A stretch of 64,000 nt of DNA. Origin: Anaerolineaceae bacterium. GTDB taxonomy: Bacteria > Chloroflexota > Anaerolineae > Anaerolineales > Anaerolineaceae. Location: assembly GCA_039683035.1 (NCBI GenBank), contig JBDKSE010000020.1:165158-229157 (forward strand), written 5' to 3'. This document shows positions 30,849 through 38,287 of the stretch, piece by piece. A program made the position numbers and the translations under genes. Within the stretch, counting starts at the first letter, position 1. Each line of letters starts with the position of its first letter. Under the pieces are notes generated by a model. That model ran no database searches, had not been told where the DNA came from, and saw only the letters and a program-made list of their open reading frames with translations.

Positions 30849-31559
30849 ATGACAATCTATTGGACATACACATCCATTCAGTCGATCTTTGACTTGTTTC
30901 CGGCAGGGGAGTTGCGAGACCTGCTGGGAAAAGACGAGCAAGCCTATCTTGATCATCTGCGGTTTGAAAAACGCCGCCGGGAATGGCTGGCGGGCAGACT
31001 GGCGCTCAAAGCCTTATTGATTGAATCCTTCCAAAACCTTGCTTCGAGAAGATTCAATCAATTGCAGATACTGAAAGAGGAAGGGGGGGCTCCGCGTCTC
31101 GCATTGGATGAGGGGGAAACTCCCATCCCGATTTCGCTCAGTCATTCCAATGGATCTATCTTTTGCGCCTGTTCCACCGGCCAGTCCCCCATAGGTGTGG
31201 ATTTGGAGCTGATCGAGGAACGCTCCCAGGCGTTCATCAGCGATTATTTTACGCCTGAAGAAATCAGCCAGGTCGAACGGCATACACCGCAAAAACGATC
31301 CCTGTATTCCACCCTGGTTTGGAGTGCCAAGGAAGCTGTCTTGAAGGCCCTTTCCATTGGCTTGAAGATGGATACCCGCAGGATCAATGTGAATCCGGAA
31401 TCCACTTCGTTTGAAGCAGGGTGGAAAATTCCCTGCAGCCCGGTTTTGATTCGGCAAAAAGAATCTCTGCGCCTTTTGTGGCGCAGAGAGGGTTCCTTCG
31501 TTCTGACGGTGTGCTTCGATGGTGCTCTATCCGTTGATTTTCGCCGGATCCTTATTTAG
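30849..31559 (+). CDS. Sfp-type 4'-phosphopantetheinyl transferase (PfaE-like)
   Basis: RBS GGAGG. Motifs WLAGRLALKAL, SLSHSNG, GVDLE and WSAKEAVLKAL. Confidence 0.85.
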   Translation: MTIYWTYTSIQSIFDLFPAGELRDLLGKDEQAYLDHLRFEKRRREWLAGRLALKALLIESFQNLASRRFNQLQILKEEGGAPRLALDEGETPIPISLSHSNGSIFCACSTGQSPIGVDLELIEERSQAFISDYFTPEEISQVERHTPQKRSLYSTLVWSAKEAVLKALSIGLKMDTRRINVNPESTSFEAGWKIPCSPVLIRQKESLRLLWRREGSFVLTVCFDGALSVDFRRILI

Positions 31560-33189
31560 CCATATTTTCTGACGGCTTAATGTTGGCGATCTGGCTGGCA
31601 AAGCGGATCCCCTGGGCTTCGAGGGTTCGAATGCGCCACAGATAGGCTGCGCCCTGCAGAAGCTGCATGGATACATCCACAACCTGGCGGTTCTCAGGTT
31701 TTTCCAGATAGGTGTTCCTTGCCCAGTCGTTGAATGCGCCCATGGATGGACCGCACCAGATCTGGTAGTCCATCTCGCGCCCTTTTTCACCAATGCTTGC
31801 CCAGCGCGAAGACAAACCCAAATACCAGCGGAAGATGAGCGCCATCTTGTCTTTGGGCTTTTTATTCGCGCGTTCGATCTGCTTGGGGTCGCGCTCGCTG
31901 AAGAATTTCACGCATTCGTTCCAGACGGAGTCCAGGCTCTGCTTGAAGATCGTTGATTCCAGCTTTTCACGCTCGGCAGGGGGGATTTCATCGATGGATT
32001 CGTATCTTTGATAAATCTCGTACAGCTTCAGACCGCGCATGGCAAACATGGTCCCGCGTTTGAGCACCTGCACCTTGACGCCCATTTCGAACATATCGCT
32101 GGCGGGAGCCATGGCAACGTCGGTGGTTTCCATCTGCGAAAGGAGAGCTTTGCTGTGAGCCGAGGCTCCAGATTCCACGCACCCCTGATTGACGGACCCG
32201 GTGGTGACGTAGGCCGCCCCCATCATGAACGCCGCCAGCGCGGCTGCCGGGGTCGCAATCCCTCCGGCTGCGCCGATCCTCGTCATTTGGGCAAACTGAT
32301 ACTTTTCCTGCAGGGTATCTCTCAGCTGGATGATTGCGGGCAGGATGCTCACCAGCGGGCGGTTATCGGTATGTCCGCCTGAATCGGCTTCAACCGTCAC
32401 ATCGTCTGCCATGGGCACGAATTGGGCGAGCCGGGCTTGATCGGCGGTCACCTTGCCCTCTGCCAGGAGTTGATTGACCATATTTTGATCGGCAGGCTGA
32501 AGGAATTTTTGCGCGACTTCCTTGCGCGAGACCTTGGCGATGATGCGGTGGTTGATCTTCACTGTACCGTCAGCGCCCTGCGATAATCCGGTCAGGCGGT
32601 ACCAGACCAGGTTGGGGGTCAGGGTCAGGTAAGCCGAAGCTTCGATGGCGCGGATGCCGTGCTGGATGTACAACTCCGCGGTTCTGGCTTCCAAAGCCGG
32701 TTCAAAGGGGCTGTTGATCAGGTTGAACAGGTAGGGGCTGTCGCCCAGTTCGGTCCGGATGCGGTCGATTGCTTTTTCCACGCGGGTTGGAAGGCAGCCG
32801 CCTGCACCAAAGGATCCCATCAAGCCTGCCCTGCCAAGCGCGATCACCATCTCTTCCGAGGAGATCCCATTGGCCATCGACCCGGCGTAAAGCGGGTATC
32901 TTGTTCCATAGGTTGTCTTGAACGCTGGATCCCCTAGATCAGTGGGCTCCAGTTCAGGGCAAAAACCGAACATTTGAAAACCATTATTTGACGTCGCTCC
33001 CGCCGCTCCTTCATGGGCGGTGAAATATTCGCCGTTTTTTCGCAAAAGGTAAAAAGGCCTGTCCAGTCTCAACAGGGCAGCGCACAACAAATCGGCGGTC
33101 GCTGGTTCGGGTATACCGTTATTTGCCCATCCAAACCCGGCAGTCTGACCAGGATGCAAAGCCCTGACCAAAGGTTCTTGTGAATTCAA
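31552..33189 (-). CDS. pfaD: PfaD-family FMN-dependent enoyl reductase (trans-acting ER)
   Basis: 545 aa. LGDPAFKTTYGTRYPLYAGSMANGISSEEMVIALGRAGLMGSFGAGG and ...EADSGGHTDNRP... are typical of PfaD. TTG start at 33189 with GGAGGT 5 nt upstream. Confidence 0.9.
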   Translation of the reverse strand: MNSQEPLVRALHPGQTAGFGWANNGIPEPATADLLCAALLRLDRPFYLLRKNGEYFTAHEGAAGATSNNGFQMFGFCPELEPTDLGDPAFKTTYGTRYPLYAGSMANGISSEEMVIALGRAGLMGSFGAGGCLPTRVEKAIDRIRTELGDSPYLFNLINSPFEPALEARTAELYIQHGIRAIEASAYLTLTPNLVWYRLTGLSQGADGTVKINHRIIAKVSRKEVAQKFLQPADQNMVNQLLAEGKVTADQARLAQFVPMADDVTVEADSGGHTDNRPLVSILPAIIQLRDTLQEKYQFAQMTRIGAAGGIATPAAALAAFMMGAAYVTTGSVNQGCVESGASAHSKALLSQMETTDVAMAPASDMFEMGVKVQVLKRGTMFAMRGLKLYEIYQRYESIDEIPPAEREKLESTIFKQSLDSVWNECVKFFSERDPKQIERANKKPKDKMALIFRWYLGLSSRWASIGEKGREMDYQIWCGPSMGAFNDWARNTYLEKPENRQVVDVSMQLLQGAAYLWRIRTLEAQGIRFASQIANIKPSENMAK

Positions 33190-33359: not shown

Positions 33360-33569
33360 CTAAACGCCCAGGTACTTCAACAGCGCCATCACCAGGAATA
33401 CGGGCCAGACAAGGGCTTTGAGCAATCCCAGCACCCCCAGGCCGAAGGTCGTTGCCTGTCCGATGAAGTAAATGGCTGCGCCGATGAAGCCAAGCCCGTA
33501 AACGGCGTCGCCGCCGCCGCGATGATGAATTGTTCTTACCGGTCGAACTACAGCGGGTTGTTCAGACAT
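33360..33569 (-). CDS. Small (69 aa) two-TM membrane protein
   Basis: YGLGFIGAAIYFIGQATTFGLGVLGLLKALVWPVFLVMALL. It is followed by a terminator. Confidence 0.55.
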   Translation of the reverse strand: MSEQPAVVRPVRTIHHRGGGDAVYGLGFIGAAIYFIGQATTFGLGVLGLLKALVWPVFLVMALLKYLGV

Positions 33570-33697: not shown

Positions 33698-34039
33698 CTA
33701 CTCCTCCCATTCGAATCTTCGCGGCTCCGGGCAGATCTCGATCTGCTGATCCGCTTCCAGCGAATAAATCGGAACTGAATCAGGGAAGAGGATCACGCCG
33801 CCGGCCGGCAGGCGTTTTTCCCTGAGGATGGCAGCGAACACCAGCTGCTCGTCTTCTGAAAGCACCGGGTCCAGCCCGCGTCTCCGGGCAATGAACTTCG
33901 GCGCGATCGGAAAGCCGTCCAACTCAATTTTGGCGGGCAATTTCCCATTGGAGCGTATGTATTCTACGATTTGAGGCCTGGAGGCGTAAACCACGGCGGT
34001 GAATCTCAATTCCTGTTCGGTGTACTTGTGCAGTTTCAT
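33698..34039 (-). CDS. Hypothetical protein (113 aa)
   Basis: ATG 34039 with AAGGAG 7 nt upstream. The ORF-track N-terminal extension to 34243 has no RBS and an Arg-rich, GC-artefact composition. Confidence 0.55.
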   Translation of the reverse strand: MKLHKYTEQELRFTAVVYASRPQIVEYIRSNGKLPAKIELDGFPIAPKFIARRRGLDPVLSEDEQLVFAAILREKRLPAGGVILFPDSVPIYSLEADQQIEICPEPRRFEWEE

Positions 34040-34397
34040 TTTGAATCTCCTTAAGATGCATGAATCCGGCTTGCGAGAAGCCAAAGGTGCGCTGCACCAG
34101 GGGAGATTATTTTGGGGGCGAAAAGGGAAGGAAGCCCGGTTAAAACAAAAACGGAGCTGTTTTTCGAGAGGATCTTCTCGCGCATCGAGACGCTTGCGTC
34201 TCAGGCACCGATGCCGTCTCCAGGCCGGTTGCCAGTCCGCCAACGGCGGACATTCCTGATGTACTTTTGTTTATACGAAAAAGGAGGGGGGAAGTCAAGA
34301 GGGGAGGGATTTGATGTATTGATAAGCAATTGTTAAGGTTTGAGAACAAAAGGTTCTGTATACTATATGACATGGGGGATTAATTAGTAGACCTCGT

Positions 34398-34422
34398 AAT
34401 TACTAATAGAGCCTATTAGAAT
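34398..34422 (+). repeat. Left copy of the bipartite direct repeat AATTACTAAT-N7-ATTAGAAT
   Basis: aattactaat at 34398-34407 and attagaat at 34415-34422. The same two blocks recur at 36497-36515. The reverse complement attagtaat is at 34621-34629. Confidence 0.5.
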
Positions 34423-34831
34423 CCAACTATTTTGTTAAATTGTCATCAAGGAATAATATTTTGTTTACTGTACTAAAGGATTCACAAATTGCCATTGAAG
34501 CTAATTCAATTTAGGCTGGCTTGAATTTTCGAAATTGCTTAGCCTGTATACAAATAAGTGAATGATTATAAAAACTTCTATGTTACGGAACGATCTTAAA
34601 AGACTCAAAAGTATCATTGGATTAGTAATAATAAGCCATTCTTTGTGAAGATTTCCAATGAATATATGCTCATTTTCGAATTTTTGAGAGGAAGAAAGTC
34701 AAGACTTCGCCGTTGTTCAACAAATGCAAAGTCTGATTTTTGAGCTCTCCAAACCTTCTGCAACTTAACTATTGATCTAGCCCCAATTTACTCCGCGAGA
34801 AAATTACCATATCAAGAGGATTATCCTAAAT

Positions 34832-35602
34832 ATGACTGATGAGAATTTCTTTTCAAATCCAGAGCCACTACTCGCAACGCTCGCCAACCTTTTTGCTTCC
34901 TCTGGAGCTGCGCGTGAAGTTGCTGTTCTAGCAAATTCAACAGCGAGAATCAAACAAACTAGTTATGATAATTGGAATGGCGGGACCTATGGGTATTCAT
35001 TATTCTTGCAGATACCTAATTGGCTCTACAATCAAGTAATTAGCGAAATTGAGAGTATCGAGAAATCTCTCTCTGAGAAGGCAAATCTGCTCTCAAGAGG
35101 TAATGAGAATGAGTTTTTAGAAAGAGTATACGTAACTCCGCAAATTGCAGATGATAATGAATGGAGGGAAAAAGCAAAAGCTTGGTTATCAGGTGATGGG
35201 ATTTCTAATCAAGGACGTGTTCATTCGGACAATATTCCATCAAGGACAATGGATGGCTTGTTATTTAGATCCCAACCAGAAATATTTTTATACATTGCAC
35301 TTAAATCATCTGGAGTTTCATTCGCTCCATTAGCAGTATTTATTCGCGGGGGAGAGAGCTACAAAAGAATTGAACCTGACTTCTTTATTGTAAAGGATGG
35401 CATTTCCTTGGTAGTTGAAGTTGATGGGGACACTGTCCATCATGAAACCCCTGTTGAAGCTCACTCAAGAACATCCATGCTTGTTTATGAAGGGGTTCAT
35501 ATTGAGAGGGTTAGGGCAAGCGAATGTGAATCACAGTTTTTAGCAAACGCTTGTGCGAAGAAAATTATGACCGTAATTGAGAAATTAAAATCTACTCGCT
35601 AA
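34832..35602 (+). CDS. Unknown N-terminal domain fused to a DUF559/Vsr-like PD-(D/E)xK endonuclease domain
   Basis: The C-terminal 110 aa, FRSQPEIFLYIALKSSGVSF...RIEPDFFIVKDGISLVVEVDGDTVHH...YEGVHIERVRASE, follow the (P)DF...hhVEhDG..H...R pattern of DUF559/Vsr-like nucleases. I did not recognise the N-terminal 140 aa or so. Confidence 0.55.
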   Translation: MTDENFFSNPEPLLATLANLFASSGAAREVAVLANSTARIKQTSYDNWNGGTYGYSLFLQIPNWLYNQVISEIESIEKSLSEKANLLSRGNENEFLERVYVTPQIADDNEWREKAKAWLSGDGISNQGRVHSDNIPSRTMDGLLFRSQPEIFLYIALKSSGVSFAPLAVFIRGGESYKRIEPDFFIVKDGISLVVEVDGDTVHHETPVEAHSRTSMLVYEGVHIERVRASECESQFLANACAKKIMTVIEKLKSTR

Positions 35603-35719
35603 AAAATTTTTTGCAACAGATGTATTACTACACTACATCAGGTTTGTTTTGACGTGTCACCACTGTTGAAAATTAAAGCACCGTAAGCCAAATCTTAAAT
35701 TAGGAAAACGGGAGCATTT

Positions 35720-36496
35720 ATGATCGAGAGGAAATCACAAAATAGAAGAAGAATCTTCATACGGGCCAAAGATAAGGTATGCCAGATTTTCAGTTTTAAA
35801 CAATCTGCTGATGGATCAATATATTGTTCATCATCGGATTTCGATGATGCGAATTGGTTTAGTGCAGTATTAACAGAAATTGGACCTCAACTAGTAACAA
35901 CTGAGCCAGTTGGGGAGGGAAAGATAAGCTTTCACGGGTCTGGCATGGTAGCGATCCGACCAAATGACGATCCAAAAGGACACCGATTAATAATTAAAGG
36001 TAATAATTTATTTAACAAAATGGAGGAAAAAGTTGGCATCCGCCATCTCTTTACAATTTTCTCGAAAGAACCGAAGTATCAACCGACATCTTCCCCCATT
36101 TTTAATCGTGATGGTGATTATTGCATAGAAGCGAACGAAGAATTAAAGCCATTCGTGTTAGTTTTCTTTGCTGCACCACAAGGGCTATCGATCAGTTTCC
36201 AATTCAATCTGCACATGGATGACATGATAAATATACCAAACGATTTTTTGGGACTTAATGGTTTTAGTCTTCGGTACCATGATATTCTTTGGTTTGCATA
36301 TCGGACAAACCATATGGAAAAGTGGCCCAAACAAGCTCAAGTAGTCTATCATGATGGTTATTCATTTCCAATTTTTATTGGAACTGGATTAGGTATAGGC
36401 AGATGGGAGTTCCGACAGCCTCTGTATTCCTTAAACGGTAATAATCTTGAAATAATATGCAATCGAAATTACTCTGATGATTATTCAAACCCTTGA
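35720..36496 (+). CDS. Hypothetical protein (258 aa), no recognisable domain
   Basis: ORF with GGGAG 6 nt upstream of the ATG. It has the same strand and AT-rich composition as the nuclease-fusion gene, and there is no terminator hairpin in the 117-nt spacer. Confidence 0.55.
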   Translation: MIERKSQNRRRIFIRAKDKVCQIFSFKQSADGSIYCSSSDFDDANWFSAVLTEIGPQLVTTEPVGEGKISFHGSGMVAIRPNDDPKGHRLIIKGNNLFNKMEEKVGIRHLFTIFSKEPKYQPTSSPIFNRDGDYCIEANEELKPFVLVFFAAPQGLSISFQFNLHMDDMINIPNDFLGLNGFSLRYHDILWFAYRTNHMEKWPKQAQVVYHDGYSFPIFIGTGLGIGRWEFRQPLYSLNGNNLEIICNRNYSDDYSNP

Positions 36497-36515
36497 AATT
36501 ACTAATCATTAGAAT
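36497..36515 (+). repeat. Right copy of the bipartite direct repeat AATTACTAAT-N1-ATTAGAAT
   Basis: It starts immediately after the TGA of the 35720-36496 ORF, with aattactaat at 36497-36506 and attagaat at 36508-36515. Confidence 0.5.
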
Positions 36516-36532
36516 TAATCCTTAGCGGAGTA

Positions 36533-36608
36533 CGTAGGGTTCGCCGCTGACGCACCATTTTGCCAGGCACCGTTCAGGTGGTGCGTTCACTTTTGAACGC
36601 ACCCTACG
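36533..36608 (+). other. GC-rich structured element at the right islet border
   Basis: Outer pairing CGTAGGGT (36533-36540) with ACCCTACG (36601-36608). Perfect hairpin GGTGCGTTCA-CTTT-TGAACGCACC (36580-36603). A third related copy, TGACGCACC (36548-36556), could pair alternatively with 36580-36589. Confidence 0.35.
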
Positions 36609-36726
36609 GCTGCCTGCACTCGACTTTCCTTACCAATTCAAAGCAATTGTCTATACATTTGGGAACCCAAGGACCCTATAATGTTCGTAACGTAAGCCTT
36701 TCCTCAGCGAATCATGGAGGTGTTGG

Positions 36727-37134
36727 ATGAATCTGCAGGCGGTTTTGCCAGAACTCAACATTTGGGCAATCCTGGTGGCCATGCTGGTGCATACTGTAAT
36801 AGGATTGGCCTGGTTTCAGAAGGGGATATTCGGCAATGCATGGTCTGCGCTGACGGGAGCAAGTTTGAATCCGTCAACGAAGTGGATCCCTGCCGGTTTG
36901 ATTGGGCATCTGATCATGGTTTTTGTGCTGGCGATCATCATTCGACTGGCAAATGCCACCACGCTGCTTGAAGGCGCACTCATCGGCGCCATCGCATGCA
37001 TCGGTTTTATGGCTACACTGGAAGCCGGCGAGCTGATCTGGGAGAAGATACCATTCAAGCTTTACTTGATCCGGATCGGGAATCAATTGATCGGGATGAT
37101 GGTCAGCGGAGCGATTTTGGCTGTGTGGAGATAA
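36727..37134 (+). CDS. DUF1761-family membrane protein
   Basis: NIWAILVAMLVHTVIGLAWFQKGIFGNAWSALTG N-terminus and four hydrophobic segments. Confidence 0.7.
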   Translation: MNLQAVLPELNIWAILVAMLVHTVIGLAWFQKGIFGNAWSALTGASLNPSTKWIPAGLIGHLIMVFVLAIIIRLANATTLLEGALIGAIACIGFMATLEAGELIWEKIPFKLYLIRIGNQLIGMMVSGAILAVWR

Positions 37135-37238
37135 TGCGCGACAATACAAACGACGATCAAAGCGGTAAAAAGCAAACCTCAGTTGGTCTGTCCCTTCATG
37201 TGAGGCTACATCTCATTTTCCCCCATTAAATAAAAAAG

Positions 37239-37311
<73 letters not shown>

Positions 37312-37360: not shown

Positions 37361-38287
37361 CTACGGGCAGGTGACCGTCATATTTGCCACGCTCGGGAAG
37401 AGCTGGTGGTTGGGGGCATCGATGTACACTTGGATGGTGCCTGCCGTGGTGCCGGGCACCTGCAGCGAATAGGACGGGGTGGTCTTGGTGCCGGCTTCGC
37501 TGAAGCTGAGTTCCAGCGTGGGCGAATTGCCCAGTGGGGTGACGAAGTAATAAGTCACCTTGCCGGCTGCGGTGGCGGTGATGGTCGCCGCCAGGTCGAT
37601 GGCTACCGGGCACACACCCGACCAGGTGGCGGGGTAGGCTGCCGGGACGGCGTTGGTCACGGCAAAGGTCTGCTGCACCACGATGACCACGGTGAACGCG
37701 GAACTCGATTCGGGTCCGATGCCGAAATTGGTGCCGGTGGCGGTTTGCAGCATCCAGTTGCCCTTGTAGGTCTTGGGAATGGAGGGGGCGGTCAAATCCA
37801 CCGAAACGTCAATGGTCTGACCCGGCGCCACGGTCTCGTCGAGTGTCTTGGAAGCCGGTCCGCTCATCGAATCGCCGCTGACGAACACCAGTTTGAAATT
37901 CGACGCCCAGGTACCCGTGCCGTCATTGCGCAGGCGCCAGGTCTTCTTGAAGGTCTTTCCGGGCTCGATGACCGTGTTATCCGGGATGGTCACATCGGTG
38001 ATGAAACCCACCTTGAAGGTCGGTTGGGGGGTATTGGTCGCCTGGGGGGCGGTTTCGGTCGTCCCCGCGGTGGGGGCAGCCAGGGTAAGCGTGGGGGTGG
38101 GTGCGTTGGGTGACAGGTTGGATGCAAGCTGGGTCTGCATGGCAGAAACGGTCTGCGCCACGGCGGTTTGATTGTTGCCCACGGCGGGAGTCACATTTTT
38201 GCCGAGCGGCAGGTTGCAGGCGGCCAGCAGCATGATGACGACCAGGAATACCGTAGAGAACTGGATGATTTTTCGCATGAATCTCAC
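37361..38287 (-). CDS. Secreted/lipoprotein with an NBR1-like Ig-fold domain
   Basis: Leader ...VVIMLLAAC. FITDVTIPDNTVIEPGKTFKKTWRLRNDGTGTW...GQTIDVSVDLTAP...GNWMLQ matches the NBR1 (N_BRCA1_IG-like) pattern. Confidence 0.65.
   Translation of the reverse strand: MRFMRKIIQFSTVFLVVIMLLAACNLPLGKNVTPAVGNNQTAVAQTVSAMQTQLASNLSPNAPTPTLTLAAPTAGTTETAPQATNTPQPTFKVGFITDVTIPDNTVIEPGKTFKKTWRLRNDGTGTWASNFKLVFVSGDSMSGPASKTLDETVAPGQTIDVSVDLTAPSIPKTYKGNWMLQTATGTNFGIGPESSSAFTVVIVVQQTFAVTNAVPAAYPATWSGVCPVAIDLAATITATAAGKVTYYFVTPLGNSPTLELSFSEAGTKTTPSYSLQVPGTTAGTIQVYIDAPNHQLFPSVANMTVTCP

What the first reader, a model, noticed from the sequence alone, without database searches (positions are those of the whole stretch)
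34262..36520. AT-rich two-gene islet near tRNA-Lys: DUF559/Vsr-like nuclease fusion plus an orphan protein, a candidate novel defence or selfish module
Seen in sequence:
- Composition drops abruptly to roughly one-third G+C (by eye) between about 34262 and about 36520, inside a window that is otherwise well above 50%.
- The islet has a 570-nt AT-rich leader and two co-directional ORFs 117 nt apart, with no terminator hairpin between them.
- ORF1 (34832-35602) ends in RIEPDFFIVKDGISLVVEVDGDTVHH...HIERVRASE, the PD-(D/E)xK-type pattern of DUF559/Vsr-like endonucleases. This follows an N-terminal domain of about 140 aa that I cannot assign.
- ORF2 (35720-36496) has no motif I recognise.
- No integrase or transposase is present.
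- The 3' end of tRNA-Lys(CUU) faces the islet from 0.7 kb away.

Inference: this is a horizontally acquired nuclease-plus-partner cassette of the kind found in defence islands (effector nuclease plus sensor or immunity protein). No named system I know matches this pair.
Basis: partly seen in the sequence, partly recalled or inferred. Interest (0 to 1): 0.8.

Follow-up and report, generated by a model that had tools for sequence, protein, structure and literature searches.

The report
Two unrelated mobile orphan genes
The AT-rich islet is real, but its two genes are not a system: they are independent mobile single genes whose relatives travel as integron cassettes, one a likely one-protein anti-phage nuclease and the other a rare protein with no recognisable fold.

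Summary

ORF1 and ORF2 are never neighbours in about 26 ORF1 loci and about 20 distinct ORF2 contexts. This includes each gene's closest homologue. A syntenic relative (L129) has ORF2 at the same tRNA-Lys hotspot without ORF1.

ORF1 belongs to a large unannotated family found across phyla. It joins an unnamed N-terminal domain of about 120 aa (invariant YDNWNGGT) to a divergent DUF559/Vsr-type nuclease with its catalytic motif intact. Elsewhere the same N-domain is fused to TIR, HEPN (Abi_C) and other modules. In 13 of 58 such loci it has type I restriction-modification genes within 3 kb. I therefore read ORF1 as an AbiJ-style single-protein sensor-effector. This is inferred, not tested.

ORF2 belongs to a rare family (115 clusters), always solitary and never fused. 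Its model is confident and all-beta, with no convincing fold match.

Relatives of both genes are true integron cassettes flanked by attC sites. No attC was detected in the window.

Verdict: new variant of a known kind, moderate interest.

The parts
34268..36520 (.). AT-rich islet (36.9% G+C) in a variable hotspot between a riboswitch-led small gene and tRNA-Lys
   Evidence: Composition. The same hotspot in relative L129 carries different cargo.
34268..34831 (+). Non-coding AT-rich leader (33% G+C). Only its first ~35 nt (34283-34303) are shared with the syntenic relative L129; the rest is not conserved anywhere.
   Evidence: A degenerate second copy of the edge motif lies at 34688-34704 (D1).
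34832..35602 (+). ORF1, 256 aa: a solitary two-domain protein (N-domain + conserved linker + DUF559/Vsr-like nuclease)
   Evidence: The family has more than 1000 hits, with the listed full-length hits 53-80% identical across phyla. No conserved neighbour. AF2 gives two domains, pLDDT 80.6.
34832..35191 (+). ORF1 N-domain (aa 1-120), alpha/beta, unnamed. The invariant loop YDNWNGGT (aa 45-52) is at 34964-34987.
   Evidence: No Pfam, NCBIfam, PADLOC, PHROG or PDB sequence match. The motif is invariant across 18 proteins of five fusion classes. Fused elsewhere to TIR, Abi_C/HEPN with or without AbiJ_NTD3, and other modules. It evolves faster (45% mean pairwise identity) than the nuclease (75%).
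35192..35242 (+). ORF1 linker (aa 121-137, GDGISNQGRVHSDNIPS): predicted disordered yet 75% conserved, with invariant G121, N126, Q127, G128, S132 and N134
35243..35599 (+). ORF1 C-domain (aa 138-256): divergent DUF559/Vsr-type PD-(D/E)xK nuclease. Invariant residues are E150, E181-P-D183 (35372-35380), E196-V-D198-G-D-T-V-H203 (35417-35440), R213 and E225-R226.
   Evidence: Invariant columns. DUF559 hits are sub-threshold in 31/42 members and MTES_1575 in 19/42. There is a transitive link through a Nostoc plasmid protein that passes the DUF559 cut-off. The motif aligns to a bona fide DUF559 protein. Predicted alpha-beta-beta-beta-alpha-beta order.
35603..35719 (+). ORF1-ORF2 spacer, 117 nt, not conserved in any relative. 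It holds a weak 61-nt attC-like palindrome (35611-35671, TTGCAAC...GTTGAAA), which is not significant.
35720..36496 (+). ORF2, 258 aa: a solitary orphan from a rare all-beta family, no fusions, no convincing fold match
   Evidence: 64 homologue clusters. 115 representative clusters among 1.84 billion, with family members about 240-290 aa when complete. Invariant R11, Q28, D31, Y35, K68, H72, R108, H109, R130, D133, H187, Y194, T196 and W202. AF2 pLDDT 90.7, pTM 0.88. Foldseek PDB best E 0.15 with TM<=0.2; BFVD gave one weak hit.
36532..36610 (+). Nested inverted repeat / terminator-like element just after ORF2. The same element occurs twice in syntenic L129, once directly before its tRNA-Lys.
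37238..37311 (-). tRNA-Lys(CTT), which marks the right side of the hotspot. Its 3' end is not duplicated in the window.
34149..34267 (-). Candidate SAM-I/IV riboswitch that marks the left (native) edge of the islet. Not part of the islet.
   Evidence: Rfam score 41.0 bits against a gathering score of 41.1, E 2.6e-4, full-length match

Best explanation
The islet is a small variable hotspot next to tRNA-Lys that has collected two unrelated, independently mobile single-gene modules. Both gene families circulate elsewhere as integron gene cassettes. In this genome they lie outside any recognisable attC array.

ORF1 is a self-contained sensor-effector protein of the AbiJ architectural type. It has a fast-evolving N-terminal domain with an invariant YDNWNGGT loop. 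That domain is interchangeable between TIR, HEPN and restriction-endonuclease-fold effectors, and it is often found with type I restriction-modification genes. I infer that it senses an infection cue and holds the C-terminal Vsr/DUF559-type nuclease inactive until triggered. The nuclease would then cut DNA, of the phage or of the cell.

ORF2 is a separate cytoplasmic all-beta protein of unknown biochemistry. My best guess is that it is another stand-alone cassette-borne conflict gene (defence or toxin-like), not a partner of ORF1.

Shown: the composition, domain architecture, conserved catalytic motif, lack of co-occurrence, cassette status of relatives, and synteny with L129. Inferred: the sensing and autoinhibition role of the N-domain, nuclease activity, an anti-phage role, and any role for ORF2.
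For: Independence of the two genes:
- No co-occurrence in either direction, and none for the closest homologues.
- L129 is syntenic at the left edge, ORF2, the repeat element and tRNA-Lys, but lacks ORF1.
- Nucleotide similarity to relatives is confined to each coding sequence.
- No conserved neighbours or flanking small ORFs.

ORF1 architecture:
- The N-domain recurs with TIR (41 loci), DUF559-like (18), Abi_C/HEPN (7), an unknown helical module (7) and a possible Mrr-like module (2).
- 13 of 58 N-domain loci have type I R-M genes within 3 kb. Several show the order hsdM-hsdS-[N-domain protein]-hsdR with near-abutting genes.
- Among neighbours of ORF1 homologues, PADLOC found Gabija, PDC-S28, type III and type IIG restriction-modification genes.
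- The nuclease motif is invariant, with a DUF559 link.
- The published proposal that AbiJ-type N-terminal domains act as sensors or antitoxins for C-terminal toxins is in PMC3710099.

Cassette status:
- The ORF1 75% homologue in L001 sits 32 nt after one attC and 10 nt before the next, in a 9-attC array.
- ORF2 homologues lie between attC sites in L085/L086 and L108.
- Integron cassettes of unknown function have been reported to encode phage defence (bioRxiv 10.1101/2024.07.02.601719, abstract seen).
Against: - No experiment supports defence, and no PADLOC, Pfam or NCBIfam model covers either protein.
- ORF1's DUF559 match is below the Pfam cut-off (14.1 against 20.6 bits). Whole-chain Foldseek gave only spurious ribosomal-protein hits, and a PDB profile search found nothing.
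- ORF1-type loci themselves showed no type I R-M neighbours.
- The PADLOC neighbour scans had no control set.
- In this window the neighbours are housekeeping genes, not a defence island.
- No attC was detected in the window, so how the genes arrived here is unknown.
- The two genes could still be co-transcribed here, because no terminator lies between them.
- Nothing positive is known about ORF2's function.
Confidence: 0.6

Rival explanations
1. One reading: ORF1 and ORF2 form a two-gene defence or toxin-immunity cassette, with a nuclease effector plus a sensor or immunity partner.
For: The genes are co-directional and 117 nt apart, with no significant terminator between them, and they share low G+C. 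ORF2 homologues sometimes lie next to a TIR protein (L085) or an ordinary DUF559 protein (L087).
Against: They never co-occur elsewhere. Syntenic L129 has ORF2 without ORF1. Family sizes differ more than ten-fold. In cassette arrays each gene is its own attC-bounded cassette. The TIR and DUF559 neighbours lack the ORF1 N-domain.
Confidence: 0.05
2. ORF1 is not a defence gene. It is a selfish or housekeeping DNA enzyme: a homing-type Vsr-family endonuclease (like I-Bth0305I), a mismatch-repair nicking enzyme, or a solitary restriction-like enzyme whose N-domain simply binds DNA.
For: From general knowledge, the Vsr/DUF559 fold includes repair and homing enzymes. ORF1 is solitary, spreads horizontally and is strongly conserved. 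The conserved basic linker could be a DNA-binding arm.
Against: The same N-domain is fused to TIR and HEPN effectors that do not act on DNA. It sits with type I R-M genes, which argues for a regulatory or sensor role rather than DNA targeting. No intron, intein or disrupted host gene is present. No cognate methyltransferase is conserved nearby.
Confidence: 0.15
3. The islet is inert cargo: silenced or decaying ex-cassette genes with no current function in this host.
For: No attC or integron promoter context is present. The composition is strongly foreign. The leader is long and unconserved. The neighbours are housekeeping genes.
Against: Both ORFs are intact and full length with all family-invariant residues. 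The arrangement is identical in every contig that carries the exact ORF1 protein, from several sequencing runs. ORF2 is retained at the same site in a diverged relative at 79% nucleotide identity. Both genes have plausible ribosome-binding sites, by my reading of the sequence.
Confidence: 0.15

Closest known systems
AbiJ and the AbiJ-NTD architectural class (Anantharaman et al. 2013, PMC3710099)
   Same: A single polypeptide with a non-catalytic N-terminal domain that recurs in front of alternative toxin domains (HEPN, TIR, restriction-endonuclease fold), and an association with restriction-modification operons. Direct relatives of the ORF1 N-domain carry Abi_C (L022) or AbiJ_NTD3 + Abi_C (L059) and hit the PADLOC AbiJ model in the HEPN part.
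   Different: ORF1 has a DUF559/Vsr nuclease, not HEPN. Its N-domain matches none of the AbiJ_NTD models that registered in my Pfam scans; AbiJ_NTD3 occurs as a separate adjacent domain in L059. Identity with AbiJ-NTD1 or NTD2 could not be tested. No phenotype is known.
Vsr / DUF559 (PF04480) endonucleases
   Same: The motif order PD...E-x-D-G-x-x-H...R...G-x-x-x-E-R and the predicted alpha-beta-beta-beta-alpha-beta core. There is a transitive sequence link to a protein that passes the DUF559 cut-off.
   Different: ORF1 is below the Pfam cut-off. It carries a family-specific conserved linker and an extra N-domain, and it has no link to a cytosine methyltransferase or to repair.
Effector genes embedded in type I R-M operons (the PrrC arrangement; recalled from general knowledge)
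   Same: N-domain-TIR relatives sit between hsdS and hsdR, co-directional and near-abutting.
   Different: This was seen for the TIR, the possible Mrr-like and the unknown helical fusions, not for any DUF559-type (ORF1-type) locus, and not in this window.
Integron gene cassettes of unknown function that encode phage defence (bioRxiv 10.1101/2024.07.02.601719; PMC12614218)
   Same: Relatives of both genes are single-ORF cassettes bounded by canonical attC hairpins (RYYYAAC...GTTRRRY) in multi-cassette arrays.
   Different: The window copies have no detectable attC and lie in a tRNA-proximal hotspot. No integron integrase was seen. Defence activity is untested.
PADLOC candidate PDC-S66 and ThsB-like TIR proteins
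   Same: The TIR-fused relatives of the N-domain hit these models strongly in the TIR part.
   Different: The match does not convincingly cover the N-domain. ORF1 itself has no PADLOC hit.

Membership tests
DUF559 / Vsr-like PD-(D/E)xK endonuclease (PF04480) | Pfam model score at or above the gathering threshold | tested here: not met
   14.1 bits against 20.6, E 0.043, aa 191-247. 31 of 42 family members give sub-threshold hits, best E 7e-4.
DUF559 / Vsr-like PD-(D/E)xK endonuclease (PF04480) | Catalytic motif: P-D on strand 2, then E/D-x-D-G-x-x-H, then the R...G..V.R segment | tested here: met
   E181-P-D183, E196-V-D198-G-D-T-V-H203, R213 and E225-R226 are invariant in 42 sequences. They align to EVDGGQH...R...G..V.R of a bona fide DUF559 protein.
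DUF559 / Vsr-like PD-(D/E)xK endonuclease (PF04480) | Sequence homology to an accepted member | tested here: met
   tblastn of ORF1 aa 120-252 to a Nostoc plasmid 'endonuclease domain-containing protein' gives 29% identity, E 3e-6. That protein scores 21.0 against the 20.6 cut-off on DUF559.
DUF559 / Vsr-like PD-(D/E)xK endonuclease (PF04480) | Restriction-endonuclease-like fold confirmed by structure comparison | tested here: inconclusive
   The AF2 secondary-structure order fits. Whole-chain Foldseek against PDB gave only low-TM ribosomal-protein hits.
AbiJ-type NTD-effector single-protein abortive-infection systems | An N-terminal non-catalytic domain shared between proteins with different C-terminal toxin domains | tested here: met
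   Five C-terminal classes were found behind the same N-domain.
AbiJ-type NTD-effector single-protein abortive-infection systems | C-terminal AbiJ-family HEPN domain (Abi_C) | tested here: not met
   ORF1 carries a nuclease instead. Abi_C is present only in relatives L022 and L059.
AbiJ-type NTD-effector single-protein abortive-infection systems | The N-domain is one of the described AbiJ-NTD1 to NTD5 domains | tested here: inconclusive
   No Pfam hit falls on the N-domain. AbiJ_NTD3 is a separate adjacent domain in L059. I found no NTD1 or NTD2 model or sequences, and the paper's held supplement did not contain them.
AbiJ-type NTD-effector single-protein abortive-infection systems | Phage-resistance or abortive-infection phenotype | not testable with these tools
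   Needs cloning and phage challenge.
   Zero co-occurrence in either direction. The syntenic relative lacks ORF1.
Integron gene cassette | A single ORF bounded by attC sites (RYYYAAC...GTTRRRY imperfect hairpins) | tested here: not met
   Met for relatives: L001 for ORF1, and L085/L086 and L108 for ORF2. Not met in the window: the best hit of model R1 with filters off is 3.9 bits. R1 was built from two arrays only, so other attC types could be missed.
tRNA-targeted genomic island | An integrase gene and a direct repeat of the tRNA 3' end bounding the island | tested here: not met
   There is no second copy of the tRNA-Lys 3' end. No integrase was seen near the islet. A native DUF1761 gene lies between the islet and the tRNA. 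However, a relative has variable cargo next to the same tRNA.
Named anti-phage systems (PADLOC-DB v2.0.0) | A hit to any system protein model | tested here: not met
   No hit at E<=1 for either protein.

The most novel reading that the evidence does not exclude
The YDNWNGGT domain is a previously undescribed, widespread infection-sensing (possibly ligand-binding) module. It would gate at least three chemically different effectors (TIR, HEPN, restriction-endonuclease-fold nucleases). ORF1 would then be the founding example of a new single-gene DUF559-nuclease defence family spread by integrons. ORF2 would be a second, new-fold, cassette-borne defence or toxin protein.
Probability: 0.3. Interest if true: 0.65.

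Novelty: new variant of a known kind. Interest (0 to 1): 0.45.

Why it matters
If ORF1-type proteins protect against phages, they add a large family to the catalogue of single-protein defence systems. The family has more than 1000 sequence clusters across many phyla and is currently annotated only as 'hypothetical'. Its DUF559/Vsr effector is not represented in PADLOC.

The invariant YDNWNGGT loop, shared by TIR, HEPN and nuclease fusions, gives a concrete handle on what such proteins sense.

Close relatives of both genes are attC-bounded cassettes in Chloroflexi-type integrons. This fits the recent idea that integrons stockpile defence genes, and it points to environmental cassette arrays as a place to look for more.

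ORF2 is a small, confidently modelled protein with no convincing structural neighbour in the two libraries searched, so it is a candidate new fold.

For the scan itself, the lesson is that adjacency inside an AT-rich islet is not evidence of a system.

Tried and rejected
- Two-gene system: rejected by co-occurrence tests in both directions.
- Conserved small flanking ORFs (a hidden antitoxin): none found for either family.
- Pseudogene remnants or conserved RNA in the 564-nt leader: no similarity by blastn or tblastx, and no Rfam hit.
- tRNA-Lys as an att site: no duplicated 3' end.
- Clean empty site in pfaD-bearing relatives (76-77% identity): synteny breaks just upstream of pfaD in all three, so this was uninformative. 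They lack both genes.
- Internal duplication in ORF2: none.
- ORF2 remote homology: a profile search of 1.84 billion representatives found only the family itself, plus spurious immunoglobulin-repeat hits. PDB sequence hits to plant haemoglobins (E 0.025) were judged to be chance.
- ORF1 whole-chain Foldseek hits to ribosomal protein eS7, and an N-domain profile hit to a hibernation factor (E 0.03): low TM or weak, not accepted.
- The L085 attC sequence HMM finds only its own array.
- The L090 repeats end in GTTGGGC but do not fold as attC, so they are not counted as attC sites flanking the ORF1 homologue.
- The 61-nt attC-like palindrome between ORF1 and ORF2, and the 16-nt direct repeat at 34392 and 36491, are not distinguishable from chance.
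- Phage GenBank genomes: no homologue of either gene. Plasmids: one full-length ORF1 homologue and no ORF2 homologue.
Full report
**1. Observation**

The compositional islet is real. Positions 34268-36520 are 36.9% G+C, against 54.6% for the window and about 55.5% for either flank. This is the lowest 2.25-kb stretch in the 64 kb, 4.6 sd below the mean. Third-codon-position G+C is 0.32 in both ORFs, against 0.57-0.69 in neighbouring genes.

ORF1 (34832-35602, 256 aa) and ORF2 (35720-36496, 258 aa) are co-directional and 117 nt apart. The quoted nuclease-like motif is present. tRNA-Lys(CTT) lies at 37238-37311 on the minus strand, with its 3' end towards the islet.

Two details were not in the finding. 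A DUF1761 gene of native composition (36727-37134) separates the islet from the tRNA. The left edge abuts a candidate SAM-I/IV riboswitch on the minus strand (34149-34267; 41.0 bits against a gathering score of 41.1).

The 564-nt leader has no credible ORF and no relative anywhere in the fetched data. No significant hairpin separates the two ORFs, and terminator-like hairpins follow ORF2.

**2. Are the two genes a unit? No.**

ORF1 has more than 1000 database hits. The best 120 are full length and 53-80% identical, from Chloroflexi, Firmicutes, Proteobacteria, Cyanobacteria and Myxococcota among others. ORF2 has only 64 homologue clusters. An exhaustive profile search found 115 representative clusters among 1.84 billion proteins. 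Family members are about 240-290 aa when complete, and none carries an extra domain.

- ORF2 gave no tblastn hit in the 80 loci (up to ±8 kb flanks) fetched with ORF1.
- ORF1 gave no hit, even at E<=10, in 31 ORF2 loci representing about 20 distinct contexts.
- The closest homologues do not carry the partner either. The ORF1 homologues at 78% (L090) and 80% (P0002) have other neighbours, as does the ORF2 homologue at 78% (L129).
- Neither family has a conserved neighbour or a conserved small flanking ORF.
- Nucleotide similarity to relatives stops at the ends of each coding sequence.

The most telling case is contig L129, which is syntenic with the window. Its left end matches 34283-34303. Its ORF2 matches 35713-36499 at 79% nucleotide identity. 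Its last repeat element matches 36536-36610, and its right end matches the tRNA-Lys 3' end at 37235-37265. It has no ORF1 and no DUF1761 gene. Four other small genes follow its ORF2.

The site next to tRNA-Lys is therefore a hotspot with variable cargo, and ORF1 is a separate gain or loss from ORF2. Relatives found through pfaD (76-77% identity) lose synteny just upstream of pfaD and gave no clean empty site.

**3. ORF1**

AlphaFold2 gives two domains joined by a linker of low confidence (pLDDT 80.6, pTM 0.46).

*C-terminal domain (aa 138-256).* The predicted order is helix, three strands, helix, strand. The invariant residues are E150, E181-P-D183, E196-V-D198-G-D-T-V-H203, R213 and E225-R226. 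From my general knowledge of the family, this is the Vsr/DUF559 motif.
- The Pfam DUF559 match is below threshold for the window protein (14.1 against 20.6 bits).
- However, 31 of 42 family members hit DUF559 and 19 hit the MTES_1575 restriction-endonuclease model.
- A bona fide DUF559 protein aligns over the motif.
- A Nostoc plasmid 'endonuclease domain-containing protein' matches ORF1 aa 120-252 (E 3e-6) and itself passes the DUF559 cut-off.
- A fold-level test failed.

*Linker (aa 121-137).* It is predicted to be disordered, yet it is as conserved as the nuclease (75% mean pairwise identity).

*N-terminal domain (aa 1-120).* It is alpha/beta, has no match in Pfam, NCBIfam, PHROGs, PADLOC or PDB sequences, and evolves faster (45% mean pairwise identity). 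It is a mobile module.
- Among the 76 loci with a usable focal ORF and motif, it precedes TIR domains (41), the DUF559-type nuclease (18), Abi_C/HEPN with or without AbiJ_NTD3 (7), an unassigned helical domain (7) and a possible Mrr-like domain (2). One further locus holds only a fragment.
- The loop Y-D-N-W-N-G-G-T is invariant, or nearly so, in 18 aligned proteins spanning all five classes.
- In 13 of 58 such loci, type I restriction-modification genes lie within 3 kb. Several show the order hsdM-hsdS-[N-domain protein]-hsdR with near-abutting genes. The Hsd assignments were checked against solved structures.
- Among the neighbours of ORF1-type genes, PADLOC found Gabija, PDC-S28, type III and type IIG restriction-modification genes. 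This scan had no control set.
- ORF1-type loci themselves are not next to type I systems.

*Comparison with the literature.* This is the architecture that Anantharaman et al. described for AbiJ. In AbiJ, novel N-terminal domains recur in front of HEPN, TIR or restriction-endonuclease-fold toxins. The authors proposed that these domains sense phage components and restrain the toxin (PMC3710099).

I therefore read ORF1 as a single-protein sensor-effector whose effector is a Vsr/DUF559 nuclease. That reading is an inference from architecture and context. ORF1 is not a member of the AbiJ family proper, because it has no HEPN domain. The N-domain matches none of the AbiJ_NTD models that registered in my Pfam scans. 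Identity with AbiJ-NTD1 or NTD2 could not be tested.

**4. ORF2**

The family alignment has 26 invariant positions, many of them polar (R11, D31, Y35, K68, H72, R108, H109, R130, D133, H187, Y194). The AlphaFold2 model is confident (pLDDT 90.7, pTM 0.88) and all-beta, with about 20 strands.
- Foldseek found nothing in PDB (best E 0.15, TM<=0.2).
- Foldseek found one weak unnamed hit in BFVD (E 3e-4, TM 0.34-0.40).
- There is no internal repeat, no family-library hit, no homologue in the phage or plasmid collections, and one in IMG/VR.
- The gene usually has lower G+C than its surroundings.
- Its neighbours include scattered defence genes: type I restriction enzyme, PD-T4-3, PDC-S02, PDC-S33 and TIR.
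- In L101 it lies two genes downstream of hsdR.

Its function remains unknown. I commit only weakly to 'stand-alone conflict gene'.

**5. How these genes move**

*ORF2 relatives.* The flanks of ORF2 homologues led to an unexpected result. L085/L086 is an integron cassette array. It has 13 direct repeats of about 132 nt, each running from GCCCAAC to GTTGGGC and folding as an imperfect hairpin (best z -4.0). Each bounds one small gene. The 70% ORF2 homologue is one such cassette. L108 is another array, and its ORF2 homologue lies between two attC sites.

*ORF1 relatives.* I built a covariance model from 11 of these sites. It found nine attC sites in L001 (an Anaerolineales genome; E 6e-13 to 6.5e-4). 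The 75% ORF1 homologue there sits 32 nt after one site and 10 nt before the next, and the sites fold as canonical attC hairpins. Weaker hits lie next to ORF1 homologues in L002 and L018.

*The window.* It has no hit, even with filters off (best 3.9 bits). A 61-nt attC-like palindrome between the ORFs is not significant. No tRNA 3'-end repeat exists either.

So both families travel as integron cassettes. How they reached this site is unresolved. The attC model comes from two arrays only, so it gives a lower bound. Recent work reports that integron cassettes of unknown function encode phage defence (bioRxiv 10.1101/2024.07.02.601719 and PMC12614218; abstracts seen).

**6. Verdict**

It is wrong about the pairing.

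ORF1 is best described as a new variant of a known kind: an AbiJ-style single-protein sensor-effector with an unnamed N-domain and a DUF559/Vsr nuclease. ORF2 is an unrelated rare orphan with no recognisable fold.

My confidence that the two genes are independent is high (about 0.9). My confidence that ORF1 is a defence effector is moderate (about 0.55). For ORF2 I have no positive functional evidence.

**Limits**
- Gene calls in fetched loci were made with a simple longest-ORF rule.
- The PADLOC neighbour scans had no control set.
- E-values from the attC model are rough.

Noticed in passing
window 34149-34267 (minus strand); downstream ORFs 33701-34039 and 33360-33569 (minus): Candidate SAM-I/IV riboswitch (41.0 bits against a gathering score of 41.1, E 2.6e-4, full-length). 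It sits upstream of a 113-aa protein with no Pfam family and a 69-aa hydrophobic protein. The 181-aa TTG-start ORF listed at 33698-34243 is probably over-extended across the riboswitch.
   Followed up: partly
L034, L037, L042, L043, L045, L046, L051, L061, L062, L064, L065, L068, L074: Proteins carrying the ORF1 N-domain (mostly TIR fusions) have type I R-M genes within 3 kb. Several show the order hsdM-hsdS-[N-domain protein]-hsdR with near-abutting genes. This is the arrangement I recall for PrrC.
   Followed up: yes
L028, L029, L035, L051, L055, L060, L067 (about 350-370 aa); L054, L074 (315-331 aa): Two further C-terminal modules sit behind the same N-domain, and neither has a Pfam hit. 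One is helical and ends in ...LTHKRTA.... The other has a D...QVKKGK pattern that looks like an Mrr-type restriction-endonuclease motif; that is my reading only and was not tested.
   Followed up: partly
window 35192-35242 (ORF1 aa 121-137): The inter-domain linker is predicted to be disordered (pLDDT below 50), yet it is as conserved as the nuclease core (75% pairwise identity; invariant N126-Q127-G128, S132, N134). It may be a functional arm rather than a passive linker.
   Followed up: no
window 36532-36610; L129 2078-2140 and 3090-3164: A nested inverted-repeat element (about 75 nt, GGGTTCGCCGCTGACGCACC...GGTGCGTTCA...TGAACGCACCC) follows ORF2 in the window. It recurs after two genes in the syntenic contig L129, once directly before tRNA-Lys. 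It is not attC-like. It could be a REP-type element or a terminator.
   Followed up: partly
L129 1177-2995: In the syntenic relative, the hotspot holds four other small genes after ORF2 (135, 128, 73 and 182 aa). By eye, two look like small PD-(D/E)xK-type proteins and one looks GIY-YIG-like. None was tested against a family library.
   Followed up: no
L113 1703-1866, 3587-3700, 5814-5976; L096 3566-3599 and 6116-6149; upstream of the ORF2 homologue in L087: A second kind of repeat, different from attC, flanks ORF2 homologues and other small genes in three unrelated contigs. It reads TGTATGGCTATAAATTCCGCCCGG..., followed by a hairpin with a T-run and a TATAAT-like box. Its nature is unknown.
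   Followed up: no
L101 3919-8768: An ORF2 homologue lies two genes downstream of a type I hsdR gene. It is co-directional with gaps of 4 and 43 nt, and an unassigned 288-aa gene lies in between.
   Followed up: partly
window 34284-34300 and 34688-34704; 34392-34407 and 36491-36506: Short direct repeats lie inside or bracket the islet: a degenerate second copy of the left-edge motif GAGGGGGGAAGTCAAGA, and a 16-nt AATTACTAAT-containing repeat. They cannot be distinguished from chance in AT-rich DNA.
   Followed up: partly
window 30849-33189 and leftwards; L122-L125: A polyunsaturated fatty acid / polyketide-type cluster (pfaD, a phosphopantetheinyl transferase and, in relatives, a multidomain synthase of about 2660-2750 aa) lies just left of the islet. 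Synteny with relatives ends exactly at the pfaD upstream side.
   Followed up: partly
window 37361-38287 (minus strand): A 308-aa protein with an NBR1-type Ig-like domain (PF16158, E 3.9e-27) lies just beyond the tRNA.
   Followed up: no
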